Shown here: piece by piece, positions 1 to 59,500 of the stretch
Numbering within the stretch: the first letter of the stretch is position 1
Layout of the letters: every line of letters begins with the position of its first letter
Assembly: GCA_032718475.1 (NCBI GenBank)
Contig: JAUCBJ010003650.1
Coordinates: 103,317 to 167,316, forward strand
Direction: 5' to 3'
Length of the DNA stretch: 64,000 nt
Origin: Nemertoderma westbladi
Lineage: Eukaryota; Animalia; Xenacoelomorpha
The notes under the pieces: model-generated
Told to the model about the DNA's origin: nothing
What the model saw: the letters and a program-made list of their open reading frames with translations, nothing else
The model's database searches: none
Translations under genes and position numbers: made by a program

Positions 1-3000
1 GGACTGGTACAGCAAACTCACCTACAATAGGGAGATAAAGTTAAAGTATATTGGGTAGAAGTAGATGGGAGGGACTGGTACAGCAAACTCACCTACAATA
101 GATAAAGTTTAAAGTATATTGGGTAGAAGTAGATGGGAGGGACTGGTACAGCAAACTCACCTACAATAGGGAGATAAAGTTAAAGTATATTGGGTAGAAG
201 TAGATGGGAGGGACTGGTACAGCAAACTCACCTACAATAGGGAGATAAAGTTAAAGTATATTGGGTCGGAGTAGATGGGAGGGACTGGTACAGCAAACTC
301 ACCTACAATAGATAAAGTTAAAGTATATTGGGTGGGAGTAGATGGGAGGGACTGGTACAGCAAACTCACCTACAATAGGGAGATAAAGTTAAAGTATATT
401 GGGTAGGAGTAGATGGGAGGGACTGGTACAGCAAACTCACCTACAATAGATAAAGTTTAAAGTATATTGGGTGGGAGTAGATGGGAGGGACTGGTACAGC
501 AAACTCACCTACAATAGATAAAGTTAAAGTATATTGGGTAGGAGTAGATGGGAGGGACTGGTACAGCAAACTCACCTACAATAGGGAGATAAAGTTAAAG
601 TATATTGGGTAGGAGTAGATGGGAGGGACTGGTACAGCAAACTCACCTACAATAGATAAAGTTAAAGTATATTGGGTAGGAGTACATGGGAGGGACTGGT
701 ACAGCAAACTCACCTACAATAGATAAAGTTAAATTATATTGGGTGGGAGTAGATGGGAGGGACTGGTACAGCAAACTCACCTACAATAGATAAAGTTAAA
801 TTATATTGGGTAGGAGTAGATGGGAGGGACTGGTACAGCAAACTCACCTACAATAGATAAAGTTAAAGTACATTGGGTAGGAGTAGATGGGAGGGACTGG
901 TACAGCAAACTCACCTACAATAGGGAGATAAAGTTAAAGTATATTGGGTAGGAGTAGATGGGATGGACTGGTACAGCAAACTCACCTACAATAGATAAAG
1001 TTAAATTATATTGGGTAGGAGTAGATGGGAGGGACTGGTACAGCAAACTCACCTACAATAGATAAAGTTAAAGTATATTGGGTAGGAGTAGATGGGTGGG
1101 ACTGGTACAGCAAACTCACCTACAATAGGGAGATAAAGTTAAAGTATATTGGGTAGGAGTAGATGGGAGGGACTGGTACAGCAAACTCACCTACAATAGA
1201 TAAAGTTAAAGTATATTGGGTAGGAGTAGATGGGTGGGACTGGTACAGCAAACTCACCTACAATAGGGAGATAAAGTTAAAGTATATTGGGTAGGAGTAG
1301 ATGGGAGGGACTGGTACAGCAAACTCACCTACAATAGATAAAGTTAAAGTATATTGGGTAGGAGTAGATGGGAGGGACTGGTACAGCAAACTCACCTACA
1401 ATAGATAAAGTTAAAGTATATTGGGTAGGAGTAGATGGGAGGGACTGGTACAGCAAACTCACCTACAATAGATAAATTTAAAGTATATTGGGTAGGAGTA
1501 GATGGGAGGGACTGGTACAGCAAACTCACCTACAATAGATAAAGTTAAAGTATATTGGGTAGGAGTAGATGGGTGGGACTGGTACAGCAAACTCACCTAC
1601 AATAGGGAGATAAAGTTAAAGTATATTGGGTAGGAGTAGATGGGAGGGACTGGTACAGCAAACTCACCTACAATAGATAAAGTTAAAGTATATTGGGTAG
1701 GAGTAGATGGGTGGGACTGGTACAGCAAACTCACCTACAATAGATAAAGTTAAAGTATATTGGGTAGGAGTAGATGGGAGGGACTGGTACAGCAAACTCA
1801 CCTACAATAGATAAAGTTAAAGTATATTGGGTAGGAGTACATGGGAGGGACTGGTACAGCAAACTCACCTACAATAGATAAAGTTAAATTATATTGGGTG
1901 GGAGTAGATGGGAGGGACTGGTACAGCAAACTCACCTACAATAGATAAAGTTAAATTATATTGGGTAGGAGTAGATGGGAGGGACTGGTACAGCAAACTC
2001 ACCTACAATAGATAAAGTTAAAGTACATTGGGTAGGAGTAGATGGGAGGGACTGGTACAGCAAACTCACCTACAATAGGGAGATAAATTTAAAGTATATT
2101 GGGTAGGAGTAGATGGGAGGGACTGGTACAGCAAACTCACCTACAATAGATAAAGTTAAAGTATATTGGGTAGGAGTAGATGGGTGGGACTGGTACAGCA
2201 AACTCACCTACAATAGGGAGATAAAGTTAAAGTATATTGGGTAGGAGTAGATGGGAGGGACTGGTACAGCAAACTCACCTACAATAGATAAAGTTAAAGT
2301 ATATTGGGTAGGAGTAGATGGGTGGGACTGGTACAGCAAACTCACCTACAATAGATAAAGTTAAAGTATATTGGGTAGGAGTAGATGGGAGGGACTGGTA
2401 CAGCAAACTCACCTACAATAGATAAAGTTAAAGTATATTGGGTAGGAGTACATGGGAGGGACTGGTACAGCAAACTCACCTACAATAGATAAAGTTAAAT
2501 TATATTGGGTGGGAGTAGATGGGAGGGACTGGTACAGCAAACTCACCTACAATAGATAAAGTTAAATTATATTGGGTAGGAGTAGATGGGAGGGACTGGT
2601 ACAGCAAACTCACCTACAATAGATAAAGTTAAAGTACATTGGGTAGGAGTAGATGGGAGGGACTGGTACAGCAAACTCACCTACAATAGGGAGATAAAGT
2701 TAAAGTATATTGGGTAGGAGTAGATGGGAGGGACTGGTACAGCAAACTCACCTACAATAGATAAAGTTAAATTATATTGGGTAGGAGTAGATGGGAGGGA
2801 CTGGTACAGCAAACTCACCTACAATAGATAAAGTTAAAGTATATTGGGTAGGAGTAGATGGGTGGGACTGGTACAGCAAACTCACCTACAATAGGGAGAT
2901 AAAGTTAAAGTATATTGGGTAGGAGTAGATGGGAGGGACTGGTACAGCAAACTCACCTACAATAGATAAAGTTAAAGTATATTGGGTAGGAGTAGATGGG

Positions 3001-6000
3001 TGGGACTGGTACAGCAAACTCACCTACAATAGGGAGATAAAGTTAAAGTATATTGGGTAGGAGTAGATGGGAGGGACTGGTACAGCAAACTCACCTACAA
3101 TAGATAAAGTTAAAGTATATTGGGTAGGAGTAGATGGGAGGGACTGGTACAGCAAACTCACCTACAATAGATAAAGTTAAAGTATATTGGGTAGGAGTAG
3201 ATGGGAGGGACTGGTACAGCAAACTCACCTACAATAGATAAAGTTAAAGTATATTGGGTAGGAGTAGATGGGAGGGACTGGTACAGCAAACTCACCTACA
3301 ATAGATAAAGTTAAAGTATATTGGGTAGGAGTAGATGGGTGGGACTGGTACAGCAAACTCACCTACAATAGGGAGATAAAGTTAAAGTATATTGGGTAGG
3401 AGTAGATGGGAGGGACTGGTACAGCAAACTCACCTACAATAGATAAAGTTAAAGTATATTGGGTAGGAGTAGATGGGTGGGACTGGTACAGCAAACTCAC
3501 CTACAATAGGAGATAAAGTTAAAGTATATTGGGTAGGAGTAGATGGGAGGGACTGGTACAGCAAACTCACCTACAATAGATAAAGTTAAAGTATATTGGG
3601 TAGGAGTAGATGGGAGGGACTGGTACAGCAAACTCACCTACAATAGATAAAGTTAAAGTATATTGGGTAGGAGTAGATGGGAGGGACTGGTACAGCAAAC
3701 TCACCTACAATAGATAAAGTTAAAGTATATTGGGTAGGAGTAGATGGGAGGGACTGGTACAGCAAACTCACCTACAATAGATAAAGTTAAAGTATATTGG
3801 GTAGGAGTAGATGGGAGGGACTGGTACAGCAAACTCACCTACAATAGATAAAGTTAAAGTATATTGGGTAGGAGTAGATGGGAGGGACTGGTACAGCAAA
3901 CTCACCTACAATAGATAAAGTTAAAGTATATTGGGTAGGAGTAGATGGGAGGGACTGGTACAGCAAACTCACCTACAATAGATAAAGTTAAAGTATATTG
4001 GGTAGGAGTAGATGGGAGGGACTGGTACAGCAAACTCACCTACAATAGGGAGATAAAGTTAAAGTATATTGGGTAGGAGTAGATGGGAGGGACTGGTACA
4101 GCAAACTCACCTACAATAGATAAAGTTAAAGTATATTGGGTAGGAGTAGATGGGAGGGACTGGTACAGCAAACTCACCTACAATAGATAAAGTTAAAGTA
4201 TATTGGGTAGGAGTAGATGGGAGGGACTGGTACAGCAAACTCACCTACAATAGATAAAGTTAAAGTATATTGGGTAGGAGTAGATGGGAGGGACTGGTAC
4301 AGCAAACTCACCTACAATAGATAAAGTTAAAGTATATTGGGTGGGAGTAGATGGGTGGGACTGGTACAGCAAACTCACCTACAATAGATAAAGTTAAAGT
4401 ATATTGGGTAGGAGTAGATGGGAGGGACTGGTACAGCAAACTCACCTACAATAGATAAAGTTAAAGTACATTGGGTAGGAGTAGATGGGAGGGACTGGTA
4501 CAGCAAACTCACCTACAATAGGGAGATAAAGTTAAAGTATATTGGGTAGGAGTAGATGGGAGGGACTGGTACAGCAAACTCACCTACAATAGATAAAGTT
4601 AAAGTACATTGGGTAGGAGTTGATGGGAGGGACTGGTACAGCAAACTCACCTACAATAGATAAAGTTAAAGTATATTGGGTAGGAGTAGATGGGATGGAC
4701 TGGTACAGCAAACTCACCTACAATAGATAAAGTTAAAGTACATTGGGTAGGAGTAGATGGGAGGGACTGGTACAGCAAACTCACCTACAATAGGGAGATA
4801 AAGTTAAAGTATATTGGGTAGAAGTAGATGGGAGGGACTGGTACAGCAAACTCACCTACAATAGATAAAGTTTAAAGTATATTGGGTAGAAGTAGATGGG
4901 AGGGACTGGTACAGCAAACTCACCTACAATAGGGAGATAAAGTTAAAGTATATTGGGTAGAAGTAGATGGGAGGGACTGGTACAGCAAACTCACCTACAA
5001 TAGGGAGATAAAGTTAAAGTATATTGGGTCGGAGTAGATGGGAGGGACTGGTACAGCAAACTCACCTACAATAGATAAAGTTAAAGTATATTGGGTGGGA
5101 GTAGATGGGAGGGACTGGTACAGCAAACTCACCTACAATAGGGAGATAAAGTTAAAGTATATTGGGTAGGAGTAGATGGGAGGGACTGGTACAGCAAACT
5201 CACCTACAATAGATAAAGTTTAAAGTATATTGGGTGGGAGTAGATGGGAGGGACTGGTACAGCAAACTCACCTACAATAGATAAAGTTAAAGTATATTGG
5301 GTAGGAGTAGATGGGAGGGACTGGTACAGCAAACTCACCTACAATAGGGAGATAAAGTTAAAGTATATTGGGTAGGAGTAGATGGGAGGGACTGGTACAG
5401 CAAACTCACCTACAATAGATAAAGTTAAAGTATATTGGGTAGGAGTACATGGGAGGGACTGGTACAGCAAACTCACCTACAATAGATAAAGTTAAATTAT
5501 ATTGGGTGGGAGTAGATGGGAGGGACTGGTACAGCAAACTCACCTACAATAGATAAAGTTAAATTATATTGGGTAGGAGTAGATGGGAGGGACTGGTACA
5601 GCAAACTCACCTACAATAGATAAAGTTAAAGTACATTGGGTAGGAGTAGATGGGAGGGACTGGTACAGCAAACTCACCTACAATAGGGAGATAAAGTTAA
5701 AGTATATTGGGTAGGAGTATATGGGATGGACTGGTACAGCAAACTCACCTACAATAGATAAAGTTAAAGTACATTGGGTAGGAGTAGATGGGAGGGACTG
5801 GTACAGCAAACTCACCTACAATAGGGAGATAAAGTTAAAGTATATTGGGTAGAAGTAGATGGGAGGGACTGGTACAGCAAACTCACCTACAATAGATAAA
5901 GTTTAAAGTATATTGGGTAGAAGTAGATGGGAGGGACTGGTACAGCAAACTCACCTACAATAGGGAGATAAAGTTAAAGTATATTGGGTAGAAGTAGATG

Positions 6001-9000
6001 GGAGGGACTGGTACAGCAAACTCACCTACAATAGGGAGATAAAGTTAAAGTATATTGGGTCGGAGTAGATGGGAGGGACTGGTACAGCAAACTCACCTAC
6101 AATAGATAAAGTTAAAGTATATTGGGTGGGAGTAGATGGGAGGGACTGGTACAGCAAACTCACCTACAATAGGGAGATAAAGTTAAAGTATATTGGGTAG
6201 GAGTAGATGGGAAGGACTGGTACAGCAAACTCACCTACAATAGATAAAGTTTAAAGTATATTGGGTGGGAGTAGATGGGAGGGACTGGTACAGCAAACTC
6301 ACCTACAATAGATAAAGTTAAAGTATATTGGGTAGGAGTAGATGGGAGGGACTGGTACAGCAAACTCACCTACAATAGGGAGATAAAGTTAAAGTATATT
6401 GGGTAGGAGTAGATGGGAGGGACTGGTACAGCAAACTCACCTACAATAGATAAAGTTAAAGTATATTGGGTAGGAGTACATGGGAGGGACTGGTACAGCA
6501 AACTCACCTACAATAGATAAAGTTAAATTATATTGGGTGGGAGTAGATGGGAGGGACTGGTACAGCAAACTCACCTACAATAGATAAAGTTAAATTATAT
6601 TGGGTAGGAGTAGATGGGAGGGACTGGTACAGCAAACTCACCTACAATAGATAAAGTTAAAGTATATTGGGTAGGAGTAGATGGGTGGGACTGGTACAGC
6701 AAACTCACCTACAATAGGGAGATAAAGTTAAAGTATATTGGGTAGGAGTAGATGGGAGGGACTGGTACAGCAAACTCACCTACAATAGATAAAGTTAAAG
6801 TATATTGGGTAGGAGTAGATGGGAGGGACGGTACAGCAAACTCACCTACAATAGGGAGATAAAGTTAAAGTATATTGGGTAGGAGTAGATGGGAGGGACT
6901 GGTACAGCAAACTCACCTACAATAGATAAATTTAAAGTATATTGGGTAGGAGTAGATGAGAGGGACTGGTACAGCAAACTCACCTACAATAGATAAAGTT
7001 AAAGTATATTGGGTAGGAGTAGATGGGAGGGACTGGTACAGCAAACTCACCTACAATAGATAAAGTTAAAGTATATTGGGTAGGAGTAGATGGGAGGGAC
7101 TGGTACAGCAAACTCACCTACAATAGATAAAGTTAAAGTATATTGGGTAGGAGTAGATGGGAGGGACTGGTACAGCAAACTCACCTACAATAGATAAAGT
7201 TAAAGTATATTGGGTAGGAGTAGATGGGAGGGACTGGTACAGCAAACTCACCTACAATAGATAAAGTTAAAGTATATTGGGTAGGAGTAGATGGGAGGGA
7301 CTGGTACAGCAAACTCACCTACAATAGGGAGATAAAGTTAAAGTATATTGGGTAGGAGTAGATGGGAGGGACTGGTACAGCAAACTCACCTACAATAGAT
7401 AAAGTTAAAGTATATTGGGTAGGAGTAGATGGGAGGGACTGGTACAGCAAACTCACCTACAATAGATAAAGTTAAAGTATATTGGGTAGGAGTAGATGGG
7501 AGGGACTGGTACAGCAAACTCACCTACAATAGATAAAGTTAAATTATATTGGGTAGGAGTAGATGGGAGGGACTGGTACAGCAAACTCACCTACAATAGA
7601 TAAAGTTAAAGTATATTGGGTGGGAGTAGATGGGTGGGACTGGTACAGCAAACTCACCTACAATAGATAAAGTTAAAGTATATTGGGTAGGAGTAGATGG
7701 GAGGGACTGGTACAGCAAACTCACCTACAATAGATAAAGTTAAAGTACATTGGGTAGGAGTAGATGGGAGGGACTGGTACAGCAAACTCACCTACAATAG
7801 GGAGATAAAGTTAAAGTATATTGGGTAGGAGTAGATGGGAGGGACTGGTACAGCAAACTCACCTACAATAGATAAAGTTAAAGTACATTGGGTAGGAGTA
7901 GATGGGAGGGACTGGTACAGCAAACTCACCTACAATAGGGAGATAAAGTTAAAGTATATTGGGTAGGAGTAGATGGGTGGGACTGGTACAGCAAACTCAC
8001 CTACAATAGATAAAGTTAAAGTATATTGGGTAGGAGTAGATGGGAGGGACTGGTACAGCAAACTCACCTACAATAGATAAAGTTAAAGTATATTGGGTAG
8101 GAGTAGATGGGTGGGACTGGTACAGCAAACTCACCTACAATAGATAAAGTTAAAGTATATTGGGTGGGAGTAGATGGTTGGGACTGGTACAGCAAACTCA
8201 CCTACAATAGATAAAGTTAAAGTATATTGGGTAGGAGTAGATGGGAGGGACTGGTACAGCAAACTCACCTACAATAGGGAGATAAAGTTAAAGTATATTG
8301 GGTAGGAGTAGATGGGAGGGACTGGTACAGCAAACTCACCTACAATAGATAAAGTTAAAGTATATTGGGTAGGAGTAGATGGGAGGGACTGGTACAGCAA
8401 ACTCACCTACAATAGGGAGATAAAGTTAAAGTATATTGGGTAGGAGTAGATGGGAGGGACTGGTACAGCAAACTCACCTACAATAGGGAGATAAAGTTAA
8501 AGTATATTGGGTAGGAGTAGATGGGTAGGGACTGGTACAGCAAACTCACCTACAATAGGGAGATAAAGTTAAAGTATATTGGGTAGGAGTAGATGGGAGG
8601 GACTGGTACAGCAAACTCACCTACAATAGATAAAGTTAAAGTATATTGGGTAGGAGTAGATGGGAGGGACTGGTACAGCAAACTCACCTACAATAGATAA
8701 AGTTAAAGTATATTGGGTAGGAGTAGATGGGAGGGACTGGTACAGCAAACTCACCTACAATAGATAAAGTTAAAGTATATTGGGTAGGAGTAGATGGGAG
8801 GGAATGGTACAGCAAACTCACCTACAATAGGGAGATAAAGTTAAAGTATATTGGGTAGGAGTAGATGGGAGGGACTGGTACAGCAAACTCACCTACAATA
8901 GATAAAGTTAAAGTATATTGGGTCGGAGTAGATGGGAGGGACTGGTACAGCAAACTCACCTACAATAGGGAGATAAAGTTAAAGTATATTGGGTAGGAGT

Positions 9001-12000
9001 AGATGGGAGGGACTGGTACAGCAAACTCACCTACAATAGATAAAGTTAAAGTATATTGGGTGGGAGTAGATGGGAGGGACTGGTACAGCAAACTCACCTA
9101 CAATAGATAAAGTTAAAGTATATTGGGTGGGAGTAGATGGGAGGGACTGGTACAGCAAACTCACCTACAATAGATAAAGTTAAAGTATATTGGGTAGGAG
9201 TAGATGGGAGGGACTGGTACAGCAAACTCACCTACAATAGATAAAGTTAAAGTATATTGGGTGGGAGTAGATGGGAGGGACTGGTACAGCAAACTCACCT
9301 ACAATAGATAAAGTTAAAGTATATTGGGTAGGAGTAGATGGGAGGGACTGGTACAGCAAACTCACCTACAATAGATAAAGTTAAAGTATATTGGGTAGGA
9401 GTAGATGGGTGGGACTGGTACAGCAAACTCACCTACAATAGATAAAGTTAAAGTATATTGGGTAGGAGTAGATGGGAGGGACTGGTACAGCAAACTCACC
9501 TACAATAGATAAAGTTAAAGTATATTGGGTGGGAGTAGATGGGAGGGACTGGTACAGCAAACTCACCTACAATAGATAAAGTTAAAGTATATTGGGTAGG
9601 AGTAGATGGGAGGGACTGGTACAGCAAACTCACCTACAATAGATAAAGTTAAAGTATATTGGGTAGGAGTAGATGGGAGGGACTGGTACAGCAAACTCAC
9701 CTACAATAGATAAAGTTAAAGTATATTGGGTAGGAGTAGATGGGAGGGACTGGTACAGCAAACTCACCTACAATAGATAAAGTTAAAGTATATTGGGTAG
9801 GAGTAGATGGGAGGGACTGGTACAGCAAACTCACCTACAATAGATAAAGTTAAAGTATATTGGGTAGGAGTAGATGGGAGGGACTGGTACAGCAAACTCA
9901 CCTACAATAGATAAAGTTAAAGTATATTGGGTGGGAGTAGATGGGAGGGACTGGTACAGCAAACTCACCTACAATAGATAAAGTTAAAGTATATTGGGTG
10001 GGAGTAGATGGGAGGGACTGGTACAGCAAACTCACCTACAATAGATAAAGTTAAAGTATATTGGGTAGGAGTAGATGGGAGGGACTGGTACAGCAAACTC
10101 ACCTACAATAGATAAAGTTAAAGTATATTGGGTAGGAGTAGATGGGAGGGACTGGTACAGCAAACTCACCTACAATAGATAAAGTTAAAGTATATTGGGT
10201 AGGAGTAGATGGGAGGGACTGGTACAGCAAACTCACCTACAATAGATAAAGTTAAAGTATATTGGGTGGGAGTAGATGGGAGGGACTGGTACAGCAAACT
10301 CACCTACAATAGATAAAGTTAAAGTATATTGGGTAGGAGTAGATGGGAGGGACTGGTACAGCAAACTCACCTACAATAGATAAAGTTAAAGTATATTGGG
10401 TAGGAGTAGATGGGAGGGACTGGTACAGCAAACTCACCTACAATAGATAAAGTTAAAGTATATTGGGTAGGAGTAGATGGGAGGGACTGGTACAGCAAAC
10501 TCACCTACAATAGATAAAGTTAAAGTATATTGGGTAGGAGTAGATGGGTGGGACTGGTACAGCAAACTCACCTACAATAGATAAAGTTAAAGTATATTGG
10601 GTAGGAGTAGATGGGAGGGACTGGTACAGCAAACTCACCTACAATAGATAAAGTTAAAGTATATTGGGTAGGAGTAGATGGGAGGGACTGGTACAGCAAA
10701 CTCACCTACAATAGGGAGATAAAGTTAAAGTATATTGGGTGGGAGTAGATGGGAGGGACTGGTACAGCAAACTCACCTACAATAGATAAAGTTAAAGTAT
10801 ATTGGGTGGGAGTAGATGGGAGGGACTGGTACAGCAAACTCACCTACAATAGATAAAGTTAAAGTATATTGGGTAGGAGTAGATGGGAGGGACTGGTACA
10901 GCAAACTCACCTACAATAGATAAAGTTAAAGTATATTGGGTAGGAGTAGATGGGAGGGACTGGTACAGCAAACTCACCTACAATAGATAAAGTTAAAGTA
11001 TATTGGGTAGGAGTAGATGGGAGGGACTGGTACAGCAAACTCACCTACAATAGATAAAGTTAAAGTATATTGGGTAGGAGTAGATGGGAGGGACTGGTAC
11101 AGCAAACTCACCTACAATAGATAAAGTTAAAGTATATTGGGTAGGAGTAGATGGGAGGGACTGGTACAGCAAACTCACCTACAATAGATAAAGTTAAAGT
11201 ATATTGGGTAGGAGTAGATGGGAGGGACTGGTACAGCAAACTCACCTACAATAGATAAAGTTAAAGTATATTGGGTAGGAGTAGATGGGAGGGACTGGTA
11301 CAGCAAACTCACCTACAATAGATAAAGTTAAAGTATATTGGGTGGGAGTAGGTGGGAGGGACTGGTTCAGCAAACTCACCTACAATAGATAAAGTTAAAG
11401 TATATTGGGTAGGAGTAGATGGGAGGGACTGGTACAGCAAACTCACCTACAATAGATAAAGTTAAAGTATATTGGATGGGAGTAGGTGGGAGGGACTGGT
11501 TCAGCAAACTCACCTACAATAGATAAAGTTAAAGTATATTGGGTAGGAGTAGATGGGTGGGACTGGTACAGCAAACTCACCTACAATAGGGAGATAAAGT
11601 TAAAGTATATTGGGTAGGAGTAGATGGGAGGGACTGGTACAGCAAACTCACCTACAATAGATAAAGTTAAATTATATTGGGTAGGAGTAGATGGGAGGGA
11701 CTGGTACAGCAAACTCACCTACAATAGATAAAGTTAAAGTATATTGGGTAGGAGTAGATGGGAGGGACTGGTACAGCAAACTCACCTACAATAGATAAAG
11801 TTAAAGTATATTGGGTAGGAGTAGATGGGTGGGACTGGTACAGCAAACTCACCTACAATAGGGAGATAAAGTTAAAGTATATTGGGTAGAAGTAGATGGG
11901 AGGGACTGGTACAGCAAACTCACCTACAATAGATAAAGTTAAATTATATTGGGTAGGAGTAGATGGGAGGGACTGGTACAGCAAACTCACCTACAATAGG

Positions 12001-14456: not shown

Positions 14457-14523
14457 ATTTTTTTCGCTGTTTTATATTTTTTGAAAGTTTCGTGACAGAA
14501 AACAAGTTTTACATCCATCTCAC

Positions 14524-15262
14524 CTGTCGTTGGATCCCTTAGGAACGCTTGGAACTGCATCCTCACGCAGTTTAGATCCATCCTCTCACTTTCCCGCACA
14601 ATTTCCTCGTCAACAGCCTCCAGTTGACATCGACTCAACTGCGCCCCGTTGCGTTCAGACCCCCCATAAATCCCGTGCCACTTCGCGCGTAACGCATCCG
14701 CCACCTCCTTCCGCTTTATATGTTTAATACCGAGTCCGCAGAAACTTGCGGATCCTGAGTTAGTCGCAACGTCCACAAAACAAACTCCGTCCTCTACGAT
14801 ACAGAGTCCCGGTGACTTACTTCCTAGTAGCGTGTACGCGTGGAGTCTAGGGGGTTCATCTTTAGTTACCAAGGTAACGCCAACCCTCGCGTCGCCAATG
14901 TGTCCGCGTAGTACGACAGTCGGGTATGTTTTGTTTTTCTTTGTAGAGGAAACGCCTTGCAGACATCCGTGTGAAGGTCCTTCGCAGTCATAACGGAATC
15001 GGAATGTAGTCTGCGGTTGTTCTAGTATCTCTAGATAGGGTTGCCGCGGTACCGGTATGTATGAGCAGCTTGCTACCGGTTCCCGCTGGGTTATTGTTTC
15101 ATTGTTTACGGGTTGCTCCATGATCGGAGGCGGACCCATCTCTCCGTCGCTGTTGGGGGTTGAGTCGCCGGCCATATCCTCGAAGCAACCCGGGAAATCC
15201 GTGTCGAAGAGAATATCTAGGATAGAGGGTTGATCGGGATTCGTATTTTCGCAGTTCGCCAT
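14524..15262 (-). CDS. NFKB: NF-kB (p50/p52-like class) Rel homology domain protein, first coding exon; rest of gene lies left of the window
   Basis: Motifs PYLEILEQP, FRFRYDCEGPSHGCLQG, KTYPTV, LHAYTL, GLGIKH and MDLNCVRMQFQAFL. ATG at 15262 (the ORF track starts at an upstream GTG). Donor CAG|GTGAGA at 14524/14523. Splicing to an array acceptor gives FLRDPTTGEFAVPVPPIYSYPIY, aligning with the p105 segment [22 protein letters not shown] as I recall it. Confidence 0.93.
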
Positions 15263-22990: not shown

Positions 22991-23084
22991 ACTTTAGCCA
23001 GAAAAAACCTGACTTTAGCCTTAATTAAATATCATATCATAATTATGCCTCATTTATTGTTTAATATTCAACCGTATCTTCAGA

Positions 23085-23582: not shown

Positions 23583-23687
23583 ACATAATTTTTCTACTTC
23601 TAGAAATAAATTGTACTCCAACCAAAATCCTAATGCTAATCAAATTTTCAAAAATATAGAAATATGAGTAGGTTTCGAACCCTCAAC

Positions 23688-47500: not shown

Positions 47501-50500
47501 AAGTATAAACAAGTACTGACTTACTATAAAGTATAAACAAGTACTGACTTACTATAAAGTATAAACAAGTACTGACTTACTATAAAGTATAAACAAGTAC
47601 TGACTTACTATAAAGTATAAACAAGTGCTGACTTACTATAAAGTATAAACAAGTACTGACTTACTATAAAGTATAAACAAGTACTGACTTACTATAAAGT
47701 ATAAACAAGTACTGACTTACTATAAAGTATAAACAAGTACTGACTTACTATAAAGTATAAACAAGTACTGACTTACTATAAAGTATAAACAAGTACTGAC
47801 TTCCTATAAAGTATAAACAAGTACTGACTTACTATAAAGTATAAACAAGTGCTGACTTACTATAAAGTATAAACAAGTACTGACTTTACTATAAAGTATA
47901 AACAAGTACTGACTTACTATAAAGTATAAACAAGTACTGACTTACTATAAAGTATAAACAAGTACTGACTTACTATAAAGTATAAACAAGTACTGACTTA
48001 CTATAAAGTATAAACAAGTACTGACTTACTATAAAGTATAAACAAGTACTGACTTACTATAAAGTATAAACAAGTACTAACTTACTATAAAGTATAAACA
48101 AGTACTGACTTACTATAAAGTATAAACAAGTACTGACTTCCTATAAAGTATAAACAAGTACTGACTTCCTATAAAGTATAAACAAGTACTGACTTCCTAT
48201 AAAGTATAAACAAGTACTGACTTACTATAAAGTATAAACAAGTGCTGACTTCCTATAAAGTATAAACAAGTACTGACTTACTATAAAGTATAAACAAGTA
48301 CTGACTTACTATAAAGTATAAACAAGTACTGACTTCCTATAAAGTATAAACAAGTACTGACTTACTATAAAGTATAAACAAGTACTGACTTACTATAAAG
48401 TATAAACAAGTACTGACTTACTATAAAGTATAAACAAGTACTGATTTACTATAAAGTATAAACAAGTACTGACTTACTATAAAGTATAAACAAGTACTGA
48501 CTTACTATAAAGTATAAACAAGTACTGACTTACTATAAAGTATAAACAAGTACTGACTTACTATAAAGTATAAACAAGTACTGACTTACTATAAAGTATA
48601 AACAAGTACTGACTTACTATAAAGTATAAACAAGTACTAACTTACTATAAAGTATAAACAAGTACTGACTTACTATAAAGTATAAACAAGTACTGACTTA
48701 CTATAAAGTATAAACAAGTACTGACTTACTATAAAGTATAAACAAGTACTGACTTACTATAAAGTATAAACAAGTACTGACTTACTATAAAGTATAAACA
48801 AGTACTGACTTACTATAAAGTATAAACAAGTACTGACTTACTATAAAGTATAAACAAGTACTGACTTACTATAAAGTATAAACAAGTACTGACTTACTAT
48901 AAAGTATAAACAAGTACTAACTTACTATAAAGTATAAACAAGTACTGACTTACTATAAAGTATAAACAAGTATACTGACTTCCTATAAAGTATAAACAAT
49001 TACTGACTTGCTATAAAGTATAAACAAATAATTACTCACTAATTACAGAATTACTCACTCTTAGAATGAAGGAGATTACGAAAGTTAAATATATTTAAAA
49101 TAAATACCTTTTTGGTAGACCCTGATACAATGAAGACCTCTTGCATGTCGTCGTGCAGTAGACAGCAGGAGTATCCGATGTTTATTGCTGTCTCCTGCTT
49201 GTCGCCGGTTAATATCCAGATCTTAATATTCGCCTAAAGAAAAATAATACGGAATATTAAAGGATGGGGAACCACTCATTCGAGGTATATATAGGGATGA
49301 TAGATGGACCGATTGGTAGATGGGTTGACTGAGTGGTACAAGGGTTGATGGAGTGGTACATGGGTTGACCGAGTGGTGCGTGGGTTGAGCGAGTGGTACA
49401 TGGGTTGACCGAGTGGTACATGGGTTGACCGAGTGGTTTATGGGTTGTCCAAGTGGTGCATGGGTTGACTGAGTGGTACATGGGTTGTCCGAGTAGTACA
49501 TGGGTTGATCGAGTGGTACATGGGTAGATAGAGTGGTACATGGGTTGACCAAGTGGTACAAGGGTTGACCGAGTGGTACATGGGTTGACCGAGTGGTACA
49601 TGGGTTGACAGAGTGGTACATGGGGTGACCGAGTGGTACATGGTTGAAAGGGTGGTACATGGGTTGACCGAGTGGTACATGGGGTTGACCGAGTGGTACA
49701 TGGTTTGACCGAGTGGTACATGGGTTGAAAGGGTGGTACATGGGTTGACCGAGTGGTACATGGGTTGACCGAGTGGTACATGGGATGACCGAGTGGTATA
49801 TGGGTTGACAGTGTGGCACATGGGTTGACCGATTGGTACATGGGTTGACCGAGTGGTACATGGGTTGACCGAGTGGTACATGGTTTGACCGAGAGGTACA
49901 TGGTTTGACCGAGTGGTACATGGGTTGACCGAGTGTTAAATGGGTTGACCGAGTGGTACATGGGTTGACTGAGTGGTACATGGGTTGACCGAGTGAAACA
50001 TTGGTTTGACAGAGTGGTACATGGGTTGACTGAGTGGTACATAGGTTGACCGAGTGGTATATGGGTTGACCGAGTGGTACAGTACATGGGTTGAACGAGT
50101 GGTACAGTACATGGGTTGACGGAGTGGTACATGGGTTGACCGAGTGGTACATGGGTTGACCGAGTGGTACATGGGTTGACAATCACACATTCACAACCAT
50201 TGGTTGAATCACTCAGTCACAGACTACATCCACCCCCGAAAGCTCTGCATTTCGTCCACTACAAATTTAACTCACATCTGCAAGATTAGCTATGGCTTCG
50301 GGCACGCGGTCCTGCAGTTTATCTTCTATGGCTGTGGCACCGATGAGCTCCAGGTCTGTCTCAATCAGCTGATAGACCTCGGACACTTGGGCGTCCCGGT
50401 CCACCAACGAGGTGCTCGCCGCGTGGTGTTTCTTACGCCATTCCGTAAACTCGTCAGCGCCAATATTCCGACGAGCCAACACAAGTGTACGGAGACCGCG

Positions 50501-53500
50501 AGATGCAAAATCCTAAAAAAAATTAATAGGAGGTTGATAGTGAAGTGATTATTGGTATATATACAATATATTGTACAGCTAAGAAGCTAATATGAATATT
50601 ATTCCTTAAATAAATGATAACAATAAAGATTAAAGTATTAAATGCTTATCTTATCTTATGTTAAACAAAATAATTGTAAGTTTATGATGTCCAACCTGTA
50701 AATGTTTGAGAGTTGTATCGTGAAGAACTTCGGATTTCTTTGACTTTTTCAGCCTTTCGAATATAACGTTATCCGCGCCTTTACAGTACAGCGTTATAAC
50801 GTTATCCTTGCGAACTATAACGCTCATTCGTTTGCGAACGTTATTGAAGTCGAGAATACACAGCAGCTCGTACGTGGCTTCTAGACCTCCTTCCATAATA
50901 GTTATATTGGAGGGGTTCCGAGACTGTAACGGAATGATCAGATATAAGAAAATCTTTAATAAGTCGTGTGGGGGGGGGGGGGGGGGGGGGTAATGGAATA
51001 CTTACTAAAATAAATTTATAAATATCCAACCATATACAATAAGTAATTTAAGTTTCTGACTATGTGCTATAAATTAATTTAAGTTAAATAAATAAATTCA
51101 TTATTATAATTAAAAATACTATAATTTCTAAGGAGTTTATACAGCTAGGTATTATTAAATGTTGAAGATGACAAAGTCAACCAAAAGCCTTTTTGAAGCG
51201 ACCAACCTTAAACACGTAACCGAAGTTCCTGGCTGCACTCACTAAGGCCCCCTCGTCTGGGCTCTGAGCCTGGTACAACAGTTCAGTATCCCGAACCTAT
51301 AAGAACCACAATGAGTTATTCGTATAGCGTGAACGAAAACCCACGTAACTACAACTCAAGGACATTAAGCTTTATACGCCCTCCAGCCTGCCAAGTCTTT
51401 ACGCGGCGTGATGACAGGTTTATTGTTTACTTTCATTCTGTGCACACACTATGGTAATTAACTAGACTAATTTCGCATTCGATTCGACTAAATTCGACAC
51501 TTTCTCTTCACACCATTTTTAAAACCCAAGAATTCCGTGACATACAAAATCGACTAAAACACCCAACAACTTACATCCGCCATGACAGTATGACATAAAG
51601 AAAGTAGTCTGAAGAAATCATTAGCTTCTTTAGAACCAGTTGCCATGGTATCCAATAAGGATTGATCGTAGAAATTAAAGCTGTCCTCGTACCATTCGGG
51701 ATTGAATTCACTAAAATCCACTGGTTTAGTCGACTAAAGAAAATAGACGTACAATAGAGTTAGTTAATAAAAGCTCTGGATAGTAGGGAGGCTGGGACAC
51801 CACCACAGAAAACACAAAAAGGAACCTAAAAATTGAGTTTTTCAAGATTCCAAAAATTGGAACAGCCCATTTGCGTAAAGTTGTTCAACATAAAGGGGTC
51901 AAGAAAAGGGTTGGATAGTGAGAGTATTCAACCTAGGGAGTTAAGTGTGACGCCCTCACTTACAGGTAACTTCCAAGAGAGGCTTTGTGTGTAAATGTGG
52001 TTTAGGTAGACAGAAAATATACTTTACTTTCTTATAATAATTATTATATATAATAAAATAAAATAAGTATTAATTAAGATTTCACACTCAATGTAACTCA
52101 CGAACCTCAGTGATGTCGCATGGTTGGCCGGCCTTGTCCAGCGGCAAGCCATAAACAACGCCATCTATCGAGCATAAGTTGAAAGTCATAATGTTTTGAG
52201 TTAGGGTTCCTGAAAACATAAAATAATTTATTTTAACAAAAATAGCTTTCATGGCATTTAAATTTCAACAACAACTGTCAACGTATTCTTGTTTTGAATG
52301 TCTGCCTCTTCCCAATATATCTATCACCTATTATTGATTCAATGTGAAGTAATGGATGCCCAAGAACAAATCACGTGTACACTTGTTTTTTTGGAGGAAT
52401 CCTGAGGCATCTATGCTCTAGACGGTACCATAAGTTGTTGGTCACCACGGAAATGGAGCATAAGATAAGGTAGATGCGGAATAAGTGTCGCTTGGATGAG
52501 TTGGTGAGGGTTCGCAAGTATAAATCCGTAAACACACGTATACCTGTTTTGTCACTGAACACGTATTCTATTTGGCCGAGTTCCTCGTTTAGTGTCGTGG
52601 TCCGTGCATGAGCTCCGGTCTCACTCACAGAGTAGAACATCTGTTTATCCCAATCGATAAGCCACGATTGTATCATTCGTATAATTTCCACGCTAAATAA
52701 ATAAATGTAGGTAAATAAATAAGCGTTTAAACTACCGAAATGTTAAGGAGCAGGTAGCTAGCAATTCTAACCAAAACAATAAACAAAGGTACAGGTTACA
52801 GTTTCATTTTTCTTCAAGGTTGTCTGTTGTGGATTATTGTCAGCTGTCCGCGTAGAATTTACAGCAAAGAGTAAATAACGTTGAGACTAAGTGTTGAATG
52901 TTGTTCTCTATTAAACTGTTTGTTAAACAATAGTGTTAAAAAGTTAACACTCGCTTCGCTCAAATTTGCTTTATTAAGTTATCATTTAGTGTAATAGTAT
53001 CCGCAATACTAATTAAATGCAATAATTAATTAGAAGTTTGTATACCTCCATCCCTGACGAAATGATATTGTTTCATAATAATCTTACCTAACATAAAGTG
53101 AAATCGGTACAACTGTGTTCATTAAAATAATATAACCCCAGAATATAAGAAAGGCGAGCATAGCGGAATTGTTGAACTCCTCGGGCCACGGAAGGTAAAT
53201 CTGGAAGTAGTAGCCGTAGTTGGACTCCCAGGCCCCAGCACAGATAGCCAGAACGAAACACATAATCACCAGAAGGAGGAAAATCTGGAACCAAAATAGT
53301 GAAAAAATAAAAATAACAAACCCAGAGATAGAAACCGGATAAAATGGAGAAAATAGGAAAAATATACACAAATAAAACAGAGATAAAATTATAAACGACA
53401 GGCAAAACAAAAAGAAAACCCGGAAAAAATAAATAATGGAAAATCAACAGAAGTGAAATTGAATTGAAAATACAATCCCGCTAAACAACAACCCTAACCT

Positions 53501-56500
53501 AATCAACCCTATGAGGTGTGAGTCAGGAAATGTATGGAAATTTACAAGAAATTTTTCCGGAAATTTCCTATTTTATTAATTTATTATTATAAAGTTTACT
53601 ATTTCTTTCACAATTTAATACATCCTGCTATTTTGCCATTTTAAGCACATTCTGAAAACACAAAGTAGAGTAAACACAAGGAACAAGTGATTACTGCGTA
53701 GTTGGGTTGAGGTTGTACGTTGTCTTGGCTCTTGTGGTCGTAACTTCGGGTGAAGTATACTTTTCCAGAAATTTCCTTTAAAAAAACATATTTCCGGAAA
53801 ACTCACATCCCTAAACCTAACCTAACCTAACCTAACCTAACCTAACCTAACCTAACCTAACCTAACCTAACCTAACCTAACCTAACCTAACCTAACCTAA
53901 CCTAACCTAACCACACACTAACCATAACCACAATGACATTAAGCAGCCTATCGATACTAGTCCGTTTGAATGTTGTCTGTCCACTGTTCTGCATTAGTTT
54001 AGTATCTGGGCCGGCGAATAGGACCAGCCCGTAGCACCATGGGGTGTTCCTAAGAATGCACCCCCTCAGCAGCAGTTTGTCGTTGTCCAACGAGTAGGTT
54101 TCATCCTCCCAAGACAACCTCCCCTCGAATTTATCCAAAACGTTGTTCGGGGCCTCGCAATTTATAAGCCCTGAAAATATGAAAAAAAACAAATATGTTT
54201 AAACAAACAACAGTTTCACAGAAAACATTGATAGACGATATATATATATATATAATTCTTTAATAAAAAGCATATTTTTGCATGCTGAAATGGATGCACA
54301 AACTAATAAAATAGACATACAGTAAAATATCGATATGCATCGAAAACTAAAATAATTAATGATATGTGTATCGCTTCAAATTTGGTTCATATAGAGTATT
54401 TAACCAGAGCTTTAAGAGTTACAGGTGATCTAATATACATAAAATCGTCAAGTTGCGCAACACCATAGGCGGACATTGTAGCTCTTAACAAAGTCGATTG
54501 ATCTAGTCTAAGAACACAATCTAGTAGAAAATGCGATTCGGATTCAGGCTCACCACATAAACAGGCACAATCATCAATGTCACCATATCTGCTTCTCATA
54601 AGAGCCAGGTTGCCCTGACCGAGCACCAAACCGAGAATGAAGGATTCATGAGCTCTACCACAGGATAGATTTATGGGTGTAAGTGACGGCAGCTGGTTTG
54701 TTTTGATCAGAGAATCGTTCAAATTGAGAGACTTTTTCCATACATCCTGTGTATACATTTTCATTTGTCCTTGAGTGTAGTGCAATTGCCGTGAGTCTAT
54801 ATTCTCGATTTCAATTAAACGACTAGATCTCTCATTGTTTAACCAAGCAATATATGTTTTCACATCGTTCAAGTGTGAGGCAAAACTGTTTTTTAAGGAC
54901 AGTTCGGAAATCGCTTTCAACGACATTGTAATGTCTTCCGATCTCGACAATGATTTCAACAGATATTTGGACCTGATTACCTGACAAAATATTTCGGGAG
55001 GCGGAATGCCACATATCACTTCTAGTTTATTTCTGTGAGGGTTATATAAAGCACCAACAGATTGTTTTAGCATTATGCCCCATAGATCATTAAGAATTTT
55101 TATGGCTTCCCGATTCATCCATACTGGTGATGCATACAATAGTCTTGGTAGTAGTACCGACTGTATTAGCTTTGTTGCTGCTAGTAGGTTTATTCCGCTG
55201 GATGGCTTCACAAATTTACTTATGAGATCCCAAATACTCCAGAATTTTTGCAATAGTGACCTGAGATGAAATTCAAAGGACATATTAGAGTCAAAAATGA
55301 TTCCAAGAATTTTGGTCTCATGAATATAGCTACATACACTATTCCCCATGACTATTTTAGGTAAGGCATCATAGTCAATGTGAGGCATGTTTATTATCAC
55401 AATGTCTGTCTTTTCTCCATTAGTTTTTAGTCGCCATTTTGTACACCATGTACTAAATTGGCTACAGTCTGTTTGAACTTGACTTAGGCAGACTAACAGG
55501 GCCTCCATTGATTGATCACATCCTCTATAATTAGAGCTATCATCTGCGTATTTGTATTGCGACAACAACTCTACAATGTAGAAACAGAAAAAGTCCATTG
55601 AAAGGACACGTCCTTGAGCTAACCCGATTTCAACATCTAGACAAAACGTTTCTGATTTGTAGTCATTAACAACTATTTCTATATTACGGTGTTTTAATAT
55701 GGTTGTGATGCATTTCAGAATTTTCCCCCTAATACCGGCATTATATAGTTTATAGAGGAGTCCGTTTATCCATATAGAATCAAAAGCCTTCTCTACATCT
55801 ATAGTAGTTAAAACACCTGATCTACCATTTGATGTATCTTCTTTTATCATACTTGTTAATTTATATAGGTAGTCTACTGTGCTCGAGTTAGGTTTGCAGA
55901 ATTGTGATTTGTCGCAGTGTGGTCCAACTAAATCTTGAATTCTATGTTTAATCAACCGTTCAAAAAGTTTACCAAAATATGACGATATAGAGATAGGTCG
56001 GTATGAACCTGGGAATTTGTAATCTCTTTTACCTGCTTTTTTGATAAACTTAATCATATTCAATGGCAGACGAATAGCGGTATATATTATACGGTATATA
56101 TTTTAACCTCTTTACTCACCGTCAAACCGCCCCATGGCGTCCACCCATCCCCCAACTCTGTCCTCTTTACTCACCGTCAAACCGCCCCATGGCGTCCACC
56201 CGATCTCCCAACTCTGCCCTCTTTACTCACCGTCAAACAGCCCCATGGCGTCCACCCATCCCCCAACTCTGTCCTCTTTACTCACCGTTAAACCGCCCCA
56301 TGGCGTCCACCCGATCTCCCACCTCTGCCCTCTTTACTCACCGTCAAACCGCCCCGTGGCGTCCACCCGATCTCCCACCTCTGCCCTCTTTACTCACCGT
56401 CAAACCGCCCCATGGCGTCCACCCGATCTCCCAACTCTGCCCTCTTTACTCACCGTCAAACCGCCCCATGGCGTCCACCCGATCTCCCAACTCTGCCCTC

Positions 56501-59500
56501 TTTACTCACCGTCAAACCGCCCCATGGCGTCCACACGATCTCCCACCTCTGCCCTCTTTACTCACCGTCAAACCGCCCCATGGCGTCCACCCGATCCCCC
56601 AACTCTGCCCTCTTTACTCACCGTCAAACCGCCCCATGGCGTCCACACGATCTCCCACCTCTGCCCTCTTTACTCACCGTCAAACCGCCCCGTGGCGTCC
56701 ACCCGATCTCCCACCTCTGCCCTCTTTACTCACCGTCAAACCGCCCCATGGCGTCCACCCGATCCCCCAACTCTGCCCTCTTTACTCACCGTCAAACCGC
56801 CCCGTGGCGTCCACCCGATCCCCCAACTCTGTCCTCTTTACTCACCGTTAAACCGCCCCATGGCGTCCACCCGATCTCCCACCTCTGCCCTCTTTACTCA
56901 CCGTCAAACCGCCCCGTGGCGTCCACCCGATCTCCCACCTCTGCCCTCTTTACTCACCGTCAAACCGCCCCATGGCGTCCACCCGATCTCCCAACTCTGC
57001 CCTCTTTACTCACCGTCAAACCGCCCCATGGCGTCCACCCGACCCCCCAACTCTGCCCTCTTTACTCACCGTCAAACAGCCCCATGGCGTCCACCCGATC
57101 TCCCAACTCTGCCCTCTTTACTCACCGTCAAACAGCCCCATGGCGTCCACCCATCCCCCAACTCTGTCCTCTTTACTCACCGTTAAACCGCCCCATGGCG
57201 TCCACCCGATCTCCCACCTCTGCCCTCTTTACTCACCGTCAAACCGCCCCGTGGCGTCCACCCGATCTCCCACCTCTGCCCTCTTTACTCACCGTCAAAC
57301 CGCCCCATGGCGTCCACCCGATCTCCCAACTCTGCCCTCTTTACTCACCGTCAAACCGCCCCATGGCGTCCACCCGATCTCCCACCTCTGCCCTCTTTAC
57401 TCTCCGTCAAACCGCCCCATGGCGTCCACCCGATCTCCCAACTCTGCCCTCTTTACTCACCGTCAAACCGCCCCATGGCGTCCACACGATCTCCCAACTC
57501 TGCCCTCTTTACTCACCGTCAAACCGCCCCATGGCGTCCACACGATCTCCCAACTCTGCCCTCTTTACTCACCGTCAAACCGCCCCATGGCGTCCACACG
57601 ATCTCCCAACTCTGCCCTCTTTACTCACCGTCAAACCGCCCCATGGCGTCCACACGATCTCCCAACTCTGCCCTCTTTACTCACCGTCAAACCGCCCCAT
57701 GGCGTCCACCCGATCTCCCACCTCTGCCCTCTTTACTCACCGTCAAACCGCCCCATGGCGTCCACCCGATCTCCCAACTCTGCCCGCTTTACTCACCGTC
57801 AAACCGCCCCATGGCGTCCACACGATCTCCCACCTCTGTCCTCTTTACTCACCGTCAAACCGCGCCATATGGCGTCCACCCGATCTCCCAACTCTGCCCT
57901 CTTTACTCACCGTCAAACCGCCCCATGGCGTCCACACGATCTCCCAACTCTGCCCTCTTTACTCACCGTCAAACCGCCCCGTGGCGTCCACCCGATCTCC
58001 CACCTCTGCCCTCTTTACTCACCGTCAAACCGCCCCATGGCGTCCACCCGATCTCCCAACTCTGCCCTCTTTACTCACCGTCAAACCGCCCCATGGCGTC
58101 CACACGACCTCCCACCTCTGTCCTCTTTACTCACCGTCAAACCGCGCCATATGGCGTCCACCCGATCTCCCACCTCTGCCCTCTTTACTCACCGTCAAAC
58201 CGCCCCATGGCGTCCACACGATCTCCCAACTCTGCCCTCTTTACTCACCGTCAAACCGCCCCATGGCGTCCACCCGATCTCCCAACTCTGCCCTCTTTAC
58301 TCACCGTCAAACCGCCCCATAGCGTCCACCCGACCTCCCACCTCTGCCCTCTTTACTCACCGTCAAACCGCCCCATGGCGTCCACCCGATCTCCCAACTC
58401 TGCCCTCTTTACTCACTGTCAAACCGCGCCATATGGCGTCCACCCGATCTCCCAACTCTGCCCTCTTTACTCACCGTCAAACCGCCCCATGGCGTCCACA
58501 CGATCTCCCAACTCTGCCCTCTTTACTCACCGTCAAACCGCCCCATGGCGTCCACACGATCTCCCACCTCTGCCCTCTTTACTCACCGTCAAACCGCCCC
58601 ATGGCGTCCACCCGATCTCCCACCTCTGCCCTCTTTACTCACCGTCAAACCGCCCCATGGCGTCCACCCGATCTCCCACCTCTGCCCTCTTTACTCACCG
58701 CCAAACCGCCCCATGGCGCCCACCCGACCTCCCAACTCTGCCCTCTTTACTCACCGTCAAACCGCCCCATGGCGTCCACCCGATCTCCCAACTCTGCCCT
58801 CTTTACTCACCGTCAAACCGCCCCATGGCGTCCACCCGATCTCCCACCTCTGCCCTCTTTACTCACCGTCAAACCGCCCCATGGCGTCCACCCGATCTCC
58901 CAACTCTGCCCTCTTTACTCACCGTCAAACCGCCCCATGGCGTCCACACGATCTCCCACCTCTGCCCTCTTTACTCACCGTCAAACCGCCCCATGGCGTC
59001 CACACGATCTCCCACCTCTGCCCTCTTTACTCACCGTCAAACCGCCCCATGGCGTCCACCCGATCTCCCAACTCTGCCCTCTTTACTCACCGTCAAACCG
59101 CCCCATGGCGTCCACACGATCTCCCAACTCTGCCCTCTTTACTCACCGTCAAACCGCCCCATGGCGTCCACCCGATCTCCCAACTCTGCCGTCTCTACCA
59201 GCGCTTGTTTACACTTTAGATTGGTCTCGCCGTCCAATTCAGCTGTTTCAATGTAACACAGACTGTGTGGTTCGCTGGTAGACAGTAACAGAAGATCGGC
59301 AGCTACGAACTGGTTGTTTTGCATCTTTATTATATCACCAACCTGAACATTCCGCCATTTCTCTTCTTTGAGCCTAAAAGCACAAAACCCAGGTAAATCA
59401 GCACAAAAAAAAACAAGAAAAAAATACTGTAAACAAGTATTTTCACGCCATCATCTAGTAGTTATCCAAAACCATTATTGAAATACCGACTTGGAAAGCA

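What the first reader, a model, noticed from the sequence alone, without database searches (positions are those of the whole stretch)
1..59190. Splice-junction satellites: intronic arrays built from the host genes' own exon-intron boundaries
Seen: the three largest arrays (1-14456 in NF-kB; 45525-49030 and 56108-59190 in ATP8B) are unrelated in sequence. Yet each unit spans a real splice junction, and the terminal copy is the functional junction (visible for both ATP8B arrays, inferred for NF-kB). All three arrays carry a GT(A/G)AGT donor consensus and an AG in most or all units. Known: tandem duplication across an AG|GT proto-splice site is a proposed route to intron gain (Rogers model), and AG|GT ratchet points mediate recursive splicing. 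Inference: three independent cases in 64 kb suggest a genome-wide process that amplifies junction DNA. The spliceosome must then either step through, or ignore, tens to hundreds of decoy sites.
Basis: partly seen in the sequence, partly recalled or inferred. Interest (0 to 1): 0.9.

Follow-up and report, generated by a model that had tools for sequence, protein, structure and literature searches.

The report
Giant splice-junction repeats in two genes
Three long tandem repeats in an animal's NF-kB and lipid-flippase genes are each made of 55 to over 200 copies of one of the gene's own exon-intron borders, a known repeat type ("mirage") whose extra splice signals are likely ignored, although the NF-kB repeat is built so that it could in principle be cut out step by step.

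Summary
The arrays are real and each unit straddles a true splice junction: NF-kB intron-1 acceptor (1-14456, at least 213 copies, running off the window), an ATP8B acceptor (125 copies) and an ATP8B donor (55 copies). Spliced contigs of run X4 use only the last ATP8B acceptor and carry one copy of the NF-kB exon head; the donor case rests on reading frame and homology. Stepwise removal would frameshift or stall the two ATP8B arrays, so their decoys must be ignored or their products destroyed. This is the known 'mirage' minisatellite (lancelets; human F7, CBS), which this scan also noted in several other animal genomes; new here is the scale. Tandem arrays fill 42% of the window, two other large ATP8B arrays miss junctions, and the excess over chance is weak (P 0.013 to 0.3 by null, post hoc). 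A genome-wide process was not testable (no genome held). The NF-kB array, a 14-kb chain of self-regenerating ratchet-like sites, is a good test case for recursive splicing, but nothing here shows it.

The parts
1..14456 (-). Array A1: at least 213 copies of the NF-kB intron-1 acceptor; unit 67 or 71 nt = first 47 nt of exon 2 (starting GTGAGT) + 20-24 nt of intron tail ending TTGTAG; runs off the window
   Evidence: TRF; unit split; p52 alignment; spliced contig
14524..15437 (-). NF-kB exon 1 (Rel homology DNA-binding domain); donor CAG|GTGAGA with the intron starting at 14523
   Evidence: PF00554 E=1e-39; X4 contig 14519-15437 with CT..AC joint
14446..14523 (-). Unique 78-nt 5' part of NF-kB intron 1; its A-rich end makes the first AG of the array a poor acceptor (-2.5 bits against 6-7 for internal units)
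14332..14378 (-). One decoy copy of the 47-nt exon-2 head, on which the spliced contig was laid; the contig then continues with sequence that no unit in the window has
   Evidence: tables 5, 7
35535..59850 (-). ATP8B-type P4-ATPase gene, 21 exons in the window, 1148-aa open frame; first exon(s) not found in the window
   Evidence: tblastn; model; 7 introns (39996-45535) shown as CT..AC joints
45518..49041 (-). Array A2: 125 copies of an ATP8B acceptor; unit 28 nt = 17-nt intron tail + 11-nt exon head; 108 AG|T, 15 AG|G (terminal one included), 1 AG|C, 1 AA|T
45409..45535 (-). ATP8B exon 13 (in-window numbering); its acceptor is the last copy of A2 and is the one used
   Evidence: X4 contig piece 45408-45537; frame and homology
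49108..49233 (-). ATP8B exon 12, upstream of A2; the intron collapses to 76 nt without the array, the shortest of 20
56107..59198 (-). Array A3: 55 copies of an ATP8B donor; unit 56 nt = last 43 nt of the exon + first 13 nt of the intron; 54 intact GTGAGTAA
59147..59373 (-). ATP8B exon 3; its donor (59146) is the first copy of A3 (use inferred); read-through meets an in-frame stop two codons later
   Evidence: (ORF 59139..59450)
53923..54170 (-). ATP8B exon 4, downstream partner of the A3 donor
49307..50180 (.). Control: 20-nt array filling an ATP8B intron, 73 nt from the nearest junction, spans none
36852..38957 (.). Control: 21-nt array in the last ATP8B intron, 978 nt from the nearest junction, spans none

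Best explanation
These are unusually large 'mirage' minisatellites: short stretches that cross an exon-intron border have been copied head-to-tail into the intron, likely by slippage and unequal exchange in a repeat-prone genome, and they are likely tolerated because splicing uses the copy next to the intact exon while decoy products would be destroyed. Shown: the unit anatomy, use of the last A2 acceptor, a single exon-head copy in NF-kB mRNA, premature stops or frameshifts on decoy use. Inferred: seeding at short imperfect direct repeats, exon-definition as the rule that picks the site, nonsense-mediated decay of decoy products, neutrality.
For: Tandem arrays of 100 nt or more cover 27,182 of 64,000 nt (14 arrays), most not at junctions. 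Units are young and mixed by exchange: mean substitution distance to the commonest unit 0.9% (A1), 1.3% (A2), 2.4% (A3), and a 13-unit block of A1 recurs 70 units later. Imperfect direct repeats lie one unit apart: 7 of 9 at A3, 8 of 10 at A2 (read). The two acceptor arrays sit in the shortest introns (76 nt collapsed; 78 nt to the first AG; the other 19 ATP8B introns are 113-1984 nt), where a 28-67-nt duplication can hardly miss a junction. X4 contigs show only the correct products, and X4 depth on the array bins equals the share of that one contig. Splice motifs are neither kept nor eroded more than the rest of the unit (A1 1 of 8 against 18 of 59 variable positions, p=0.42; A3 3 of 9 against 12 of 47, p=0.69). 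A retained A1 unit gives a stop or frameshift in 210 of 211 cases; a T-type A2 acceptor gives an in-frame stop at once; any later A3 donor keeps an in-frame stop. Precedent: in F7 only the most upstream of 5-9 identical donors is used (PMC1557585, abstract and passages); lancelet mirages at both borders do not disturb splicing (PMC3087553, PMC3902484 passages).
Against: 3 of the 5 large arrays cross a junction where a uniform null expects about 0.6 (P=0.013), so a bias towards junctions may exist. 108 of 125 A2 copies carry a derived T that weakens the acceptor (10.3 against 12.1 bits) and lays a donor-like GTAAGT over the AG, and the first A1 acceptor is weak (-2.5 bits); both could be selection against decoy use. 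Contigs drop rare forms and come from one RNA-like run, so they cannot tell 'ignored' from 'used and degraded' or from stepwise removal. Copy numbers far exceed the published cases that I read (up to 25 pseudo-sites), so the same rules are assumed, not shown.
Confidence: 0.68

Rival explanations
1. The NF-kB array is removed stepwise. Each unit is both a complete GT...AG mini-intron and a 67-nt cryptic exon; splicing exon 1 to any unit regenerates CAG|GTGAGT, which outcompetes the unit-end donor and ratchets on, and only the last copy, with its unique exon sequence, is kept as an expressed RS-exon. Self-regeneration would make growth of this array nearly free.
For: 212 of 213 copies have AG|GTGAGT. 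On a matrix from 20 ATP8B introns the regenerated donor scores 12.6 bits, the unit-end donor 10.7, the true donor 9.8, the order that favours ratchet use under donor competition (PMC8605326 passages). Removing any whole number of units from either end leaves the same signals. A1 is at least four times longer than the two arrays that cannot ratchet. Units (67-71 nt) are close to the 76-78-nt shortest introns inferred here.
Against: No intermediate seen (X4 contigs; contigs cannot show rare forms). The AG|GT is a by-product of exon codons. The mature mRNA keeps the same regenerated donor unused, and the exon junction complex blocks such sites in flies (PMC8184009 abstract), which would also block internal steps. 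A1 acceptors are weak (6-7 bits; real ones 5.3-16). No extra conservation of the motif. n=1 for the length argument.
Confidence: 0.12
2. A mutational bias in this genome starts tandem amplification preferentially at exon-intron borders (for example at composition steps or transcription-linked breaks).
For: 3 of 5 large arrays cross junctions (P=0.013 raw); a (TTAGG)n run also starts at the donor of exon 4; lancelets show many mirages (PMC3087553 passage).
Against: P rises to 0.034, 0.06, 0.13, 0.30 with introns capped at 600, 400, 250, 150 nt; NF-kB was scored with ATP8B geometry; the window was chosen for the pattern; 38 of 40 ATP8B junctions show no copy better than 15 of 24 in their introns; no genome or other notes on this genome to test it.
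Confidence: 0.15
3. The arrays, or their lengths, are assembly artefacts.
Against: DNA runs of two samples show far higher summed depth on the array bins than on the flanks (A1: 17,736 against 32 in X1, 6,694 against 22 in X2; A2: 704 and 789 against 27; the tool warns that this is no copy number; X1 may be the source sample). The 4-nt unit variant of A1 is present in X1, X2 and X3, and an X2 contig runs 45 nt past the A2 acceptor into the array. 37 distinct unit types with higher-order blocks are unlike an assembler loop.
Confidence: 0.05

Closest known systems
Lancelet 'mirage' minisatellites (Adh3, globins BflGb6 and BflGb9, troponin C, PGBD5); PMC3087553 and PMC3902484, passages read; the first description (Canestro 2002, PMC117041) was not held
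   Same: Tandem copies of an intron-exon border, on the donor or the acceptor side, several in one gene region, near-identical units, normal mRNA.
   Different: Here 55, 125 and at least 213 copies (3-14 kb) against 3-6 units in the globin genes; a different, deep-branching animal; one array has a true AG|GT in each unit.
Human donor-spanning VNTRs: F7 intron 7 (37 bp, 5-9 copies), IFI6/6-16 (25 pseudo-sites), CBS intron 13, lamin B2, PDGF; PMC1557585, abstract and passages read, the other four as cited in its introduction
   Same: A3 has the same build: first unit holds the exon end and the real donor, followed by identical pseudo-donors.
   Different: 55 copies with 43 nt of exon per unit; site choice at A3 is inferred, not measured; A1 and A2 are acceptor-side.
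Recursive splicing at ratchet points and expressed RS-exons (Drosophila Ubx, kuz); PMC8605326 passages, PMC8184009 abstract
   Same: A1 units have juxtaposed acceptor and donor with a downstream donor 67 nt on; NF-kB exon 2 starts with a strong donor yet is kept in mRNA.
   Different: Known ratchet points are single, conserved sites in long introns; here hundreds are repeat copies, and no intermediate is shown. A2 and A3 do not fit.
Rogers model of intron gain by tandem duplication of an exonic AGGT; PMC3265369 passages
   Same: Tandem duplication across an AG|GT gives GT...AG units (A1).
   Different: The duplicated AG is an existing intron's acceptor, so an old intron grew; no new intron or exon appears in the mRNA.

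Membership tests
Mirage / junction-spanning minisatellite | Head-to-tail repeat whose unit crosses a real exon-intron border | tested here: met
   (3 of 3 arrays)
Mirage / junction-spanning minisatellite | Terminal copy is the authentic junction; the rest lie in the intron | tested here: met
   A2 by spliced contig; A1 by a single-copy spliced contig, the copy itself outside the window; A3 by frame and homology only
Mirage / junction-spanning minisatellite | Normal mRNA is made despite the decoys | tested here: met
   X4 contigs for NF-kB and ATP8B; one run, rare forms not visible
Mirage / junction-spanning minisatellite | Length polymorphism or instability | not testable with these tools
   Only short-read contigs; summed depth differs between runs but is no copy number
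Recursive-splicing ratchet points | Acceptor directly followed by a donor (AG|GT) | tested here: inconclusive
   Met for A1 (212 of 213), not met for A2 (0 AGGT) or A3 (0 YAG|GT)
Recursive-splicing ratchet points | Re-splicing restores the correct exon-exon junction | tested here: inconclusive
   Met on paper for A1; at A2 the regenerated GT takes one exon base (frameshift); at A3 no acceptor is regenerated (read from sequence)
Recursive-splicing ratchet points | Intermediates, saw-tooth coverage or lariats at the sites | not testable with these tools
   Only assembled contigs of one RNA-like run
Recursive-splicing ratchet points | Motif conserved beyond its surroundings | tested here: inconclusive
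   Within A1, 1 of 8 core against 18 of 59 other positions vary, p=0.42; no related species held
Intron gain by AGGT duplication (Rogers) | Duplicated AGGT lies inside an exon and a new intron results | tested here: not met
   The AG of A1 is the acceptor of an intron that has its own unique donor at 14523; A2 and A3 lack AGGT junctions

The most novel reading that the evidence does not exclude
The NF-kB intron is a chain of more than 200 self-regenerating ratchet points that the spliceosome removes stepwise, and repeats whose unit holds an in-register AG|GT are a class of 'splice-neutral' satellites that can grow without cost; this animal amplifies junction DNA genome-wide, giving a natural series for testing how one site is chosen among hundreds of identical ones.
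Probability: 0.12. Interest if true: 0.85.

Novelty: new member of a known kind. Interest (0 to 1): 0.42.

Why it matters
Choice among identical splice sites has been measured mainly for 5-25 donors in human genes. Here one window offers 55 donors, 125 acceptors and over 200 acceptor-donor pairs, in introns that would otherwise be the shortest present, which argues (by inference) for exon definition in a compact animal genome. The NF-kB array is a ready-made test of whether regenerated donors are used or blocked. If neither stepwise splicing nor a genome-wide bias appears, this is an extreme but ordinary mirage.

Tried and rejected
No whole genome is held, so the genome-wide test was not run; no earlier notes on this genome or look-alikes of A1. 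No run is on record as RNA; X4 is labelled 'DNA?' but covers exons only and shows CT..AC joints, so I treat it as RNA. X8 did not cover the genes. First idea, rejected: that the A1 unit is a whole 67-nt intron with its donor at 14445; the p52 alignment and the joint at 14523 show that its GTGAGT is exon-2 sequence. Rejected: ratchet removal of A2 or A3 (frame lost; no regenerated acceptor). Search for full-length NF-kB relatives found none. Search for decayed mirages at the other 38 ATP8B junctions: best match 15 of 24. The A3 read-through translation printed is out of frame and was not used. The chance count of 5 leaves out two small ATP8B arrays (TTAGG run, 29-mer); with all 7 arrays P(3 or more)=0.024. 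Paper searches with no hit; two searches gave listings with nothing that I could tie to acceptor-spanning arrays or to this genome (listings only). A tandem array of ratchet points was not found (25 of 71 listed; 1 of 1, passages read); subscription papers and supplements were not seen.
Full report
Setting. The window is from an animal genome; no whole assembly is held. It holds the 5' part of an NF-kB gene (PF00554), an intronless FIBP gene (PF05427, best hit 52% identical) and most of an ATP8B-type flippase gene. In a FastTree of the ATP8B model with 34 of the 120 listed homologues, the window's protein falls outside a clade of the sampled protostomes, ambulacrarians and vertebrates (support 0.988 for that clade, only 0.49 for the sister position). 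That fits a deep-branching animal such as a xenacoelomorph but does not establish it. Fourteen tandem arrays of 100 nt or more cover 27,182 nt, 42% of the window.

Gene models. tblastn with 12 homologues placed the ATP8B exons (4 printed). A 21-exon model with GT-AG introns gives a 1148-aa open frame, 54-55% identical to the 3 homologues compared, continuous across both array introns. Run X4 is labelled 'DNA?' but covers exons only and shows CT..AC joints, so I treat it as RNA. One 4049-nt X4 contig confirms 7 ATP8B introns between 39996 and 45535, and its pieces sum to the model's 1182 nt.

Array A1 (NF-kB, 1-14456). Units are 67 or 71 nt; 213 junction copies lie in the window, 212 with AG|GTGAGT. 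The unit's translation aligns with p52 residues 203-218 (weak alone). An X4 contig joins exon 1 (donor at 14523) to one unit's AG|GT, follows it for the 47-nt exon head, and then continues with open-frame sequence that none of the 38 unit types in the window has. So the unit is the intron-1 acceptor plus the head of exon 2, the working copy is beyond position 1, and the GT after each AG is coding sequence. The contig cannot tell by which route the intron was removed.

Array A2 (ATP8B, 45518-49041). 125 copies of a 17-nt intron tail plus 11-nt exon head. The X4 contig begins this exon at the last acceptor (45535) and does not extend into the two further units supplied. 108 copies read AG|T, 15 AG|G; 99 carry GTAAGT, but it shares its G with the AG, and there is no AGGT. 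Twelve decoys equal the real acceptor from -20 to +3 (13 with itself). A T-type acceptor gives an immediate in-frame stop; re-splicing from the regenerated GT would remove one exon base. Stepwise removal therefore cannot work here.

Array A3 (ATP8B, 56107-59198). 55 copies of 43 nt of exon end plus 13 nt of intron start; 54 donors intact, 13 units identical to the first (itself included); AGs are in purine-rich context and there is no YAG|GT. Use of the first donor is inferred from frame and homology; any later donor keeps an in-frame stop. No reads were laid here.

Are they real? DNA runs of two samples show far higher summed depth on the A1 and A2 bins than on the flanks, the 4-nt A1 unit variant is in X1, X2 and X3, and an X2 contig runs 45 nt into A2. 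X1 may be the source of the assembly; X2 and X3 are one further sample with its own variants. Lengths are unconfirmed without long reads. Units differ from the commonest type by 0.9-2.4% and A1 has a 13-unit block repeated 70 units apart, as expected from recent unequal exchange.

More than chance? With arrays collapsed and wholly exonic placements excluded, P(2 or more of 4 large ATP8B arrays cross a junction) is 0.051 and P(3 or more of 5, NF-kB added with ATP8B geometry) is 0.013. Capping introns at 600, 400, 250 or 150 nt, to mimic the gene before insertions, gives 0.034, 0.06, 0.13 and 0.30. The test is post hoc on a selected window. Two large arrays miss junctions by 73 and 978 nt, and 38 of 40 ATP8B junctions have no copy. 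Both acceptor arrays sit in the shortest introns (76 nt collapsed; 78 nt to the first AG).

How it most likely works. Short imperfect direct repeats one unit apart (7 of 9 at A3, 8 of 10 at A2) likely seeded slippage; unequal exchange likely enlarged the arrays. Because the unit crosses the border, all extra copies end up in the intron and the exon stays whole. The spliceosome likely takes the site next to the intact exon, and decoy products would carry early stops or frameshifts (210 of 211 for one retained A1 unit) and would be degraded. Splice motifs vary no more and no less than the rest of the unit (p=0.42 and 0.69; units are not independent, so the test is weak). Two features could reflect selection against decoys: the T in most A2 copies and the weak first AG of A1 (the matrix rests on 20 introns and scores its own sites in-sample).

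The open novelty. Only A1 regenerates both signals at every step. The regenerated donor (12.6 bits) beats the unit-end donor (10.7) and the true donor (9.8), the order that drives ratchet use under donor competition in flies (PMC8605326, passages). Against this, the same donor sits unused in the mature mRNA, the exon junction complex blocks regenerated sites in flies (PMC8184009, abstract), and no intermediate was seen. I put stepwise removal at about 0.12. Searches listed no paper on a tandem array of ratchet points; they cover open papers only.

What is known. Repeats that copy an exon-intron border are described as 'mirages' in lancelets, on both sides of exons, with normal splicing and a suggested link to intron gain (PMC3087553, passages; PMC3902484, one passage; the first paper was not held). 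Human donor-side cases are F7, 6-16, CBS, lamin B2 and PDGF, and F7 was dissected: the most upstream donor wins (PMC1557585, abstract and passages). The Rogers model needs an exonic AGGT and yields a new intron (PMC3265369, passages); that is not met here. The name 'mirage' came to me from earlier notes of this scan, which report such arrays in several other animal genomes; I checked the papers, not those loci.

Verdict. Observation largely right, one claim corrected; interpretation partly supported. A very large member of a known kind, with one array that makes a sharp test of recursive splicing. Interest 0.42.

Noticed in passing
window 25246-26442 (-): Intronless 398-aa ORF with no Pfam or NCBIfam match; 27-29% identical over 74-93% of its length to three Rhizobium plasmid proteins, hypothetical or next to a GH76 annotation (E about 1e-16). 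Possible gene of bacterial origin; not tested further (profile search still queued).
   Followed up: partly
window 23076-25274 against 26560-27546: A broken inverted duplication flanks that ORF (arms of 78-148 nt, 90-96% complementary); one arm pair includes the ORF's own 3' end, placed upstream of its start, and a 30-nt tandem array occurs in both arms.
   Followed up: no
window 53814-53929: (TTAGG)n run of about 23 units that begins within a few bases of the donor of ATP8B exon 4 and resembles the junction itself; each unit holds AG followed by GT.
   Followed up: partly
window 17412-18524 (+): FIBP gene is a single open frame of 370 aa, head-to-head with NF-kB about 2 kb away; X4 covers it without a joint. 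The NF-kB Rel domain also lies almost wholly in one exon.
   Followed up: no
window 54387-56102 (-) and 61184-62640 (+): Reverse-transcriptase (PF00078) remnants; the first lies in the same ATP8B intron as A3, right behind the array's last unit. A further decayed RT-like stretch appears near 33239-34600 (by eye).
   Followed up: no
window 49011-49060 (-): The unique part of the A2 intron holds two GTGAGTAATT motifs that look like decayed units of the array and are donor-like.
   Followed up: no
window 62745-63510: 23-nt tandem array with an inverted short copy beyond 63438, like the ends of a foldback element.
   Followed up: no
window 29510-30157 and 36852-38957: 63-nt and 21-nt arrays unrelated to junctions; the 21-nt array gives long open frames of 7-residue repeats on both strands but lies inside an intron of the model.
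   Followed up: partly
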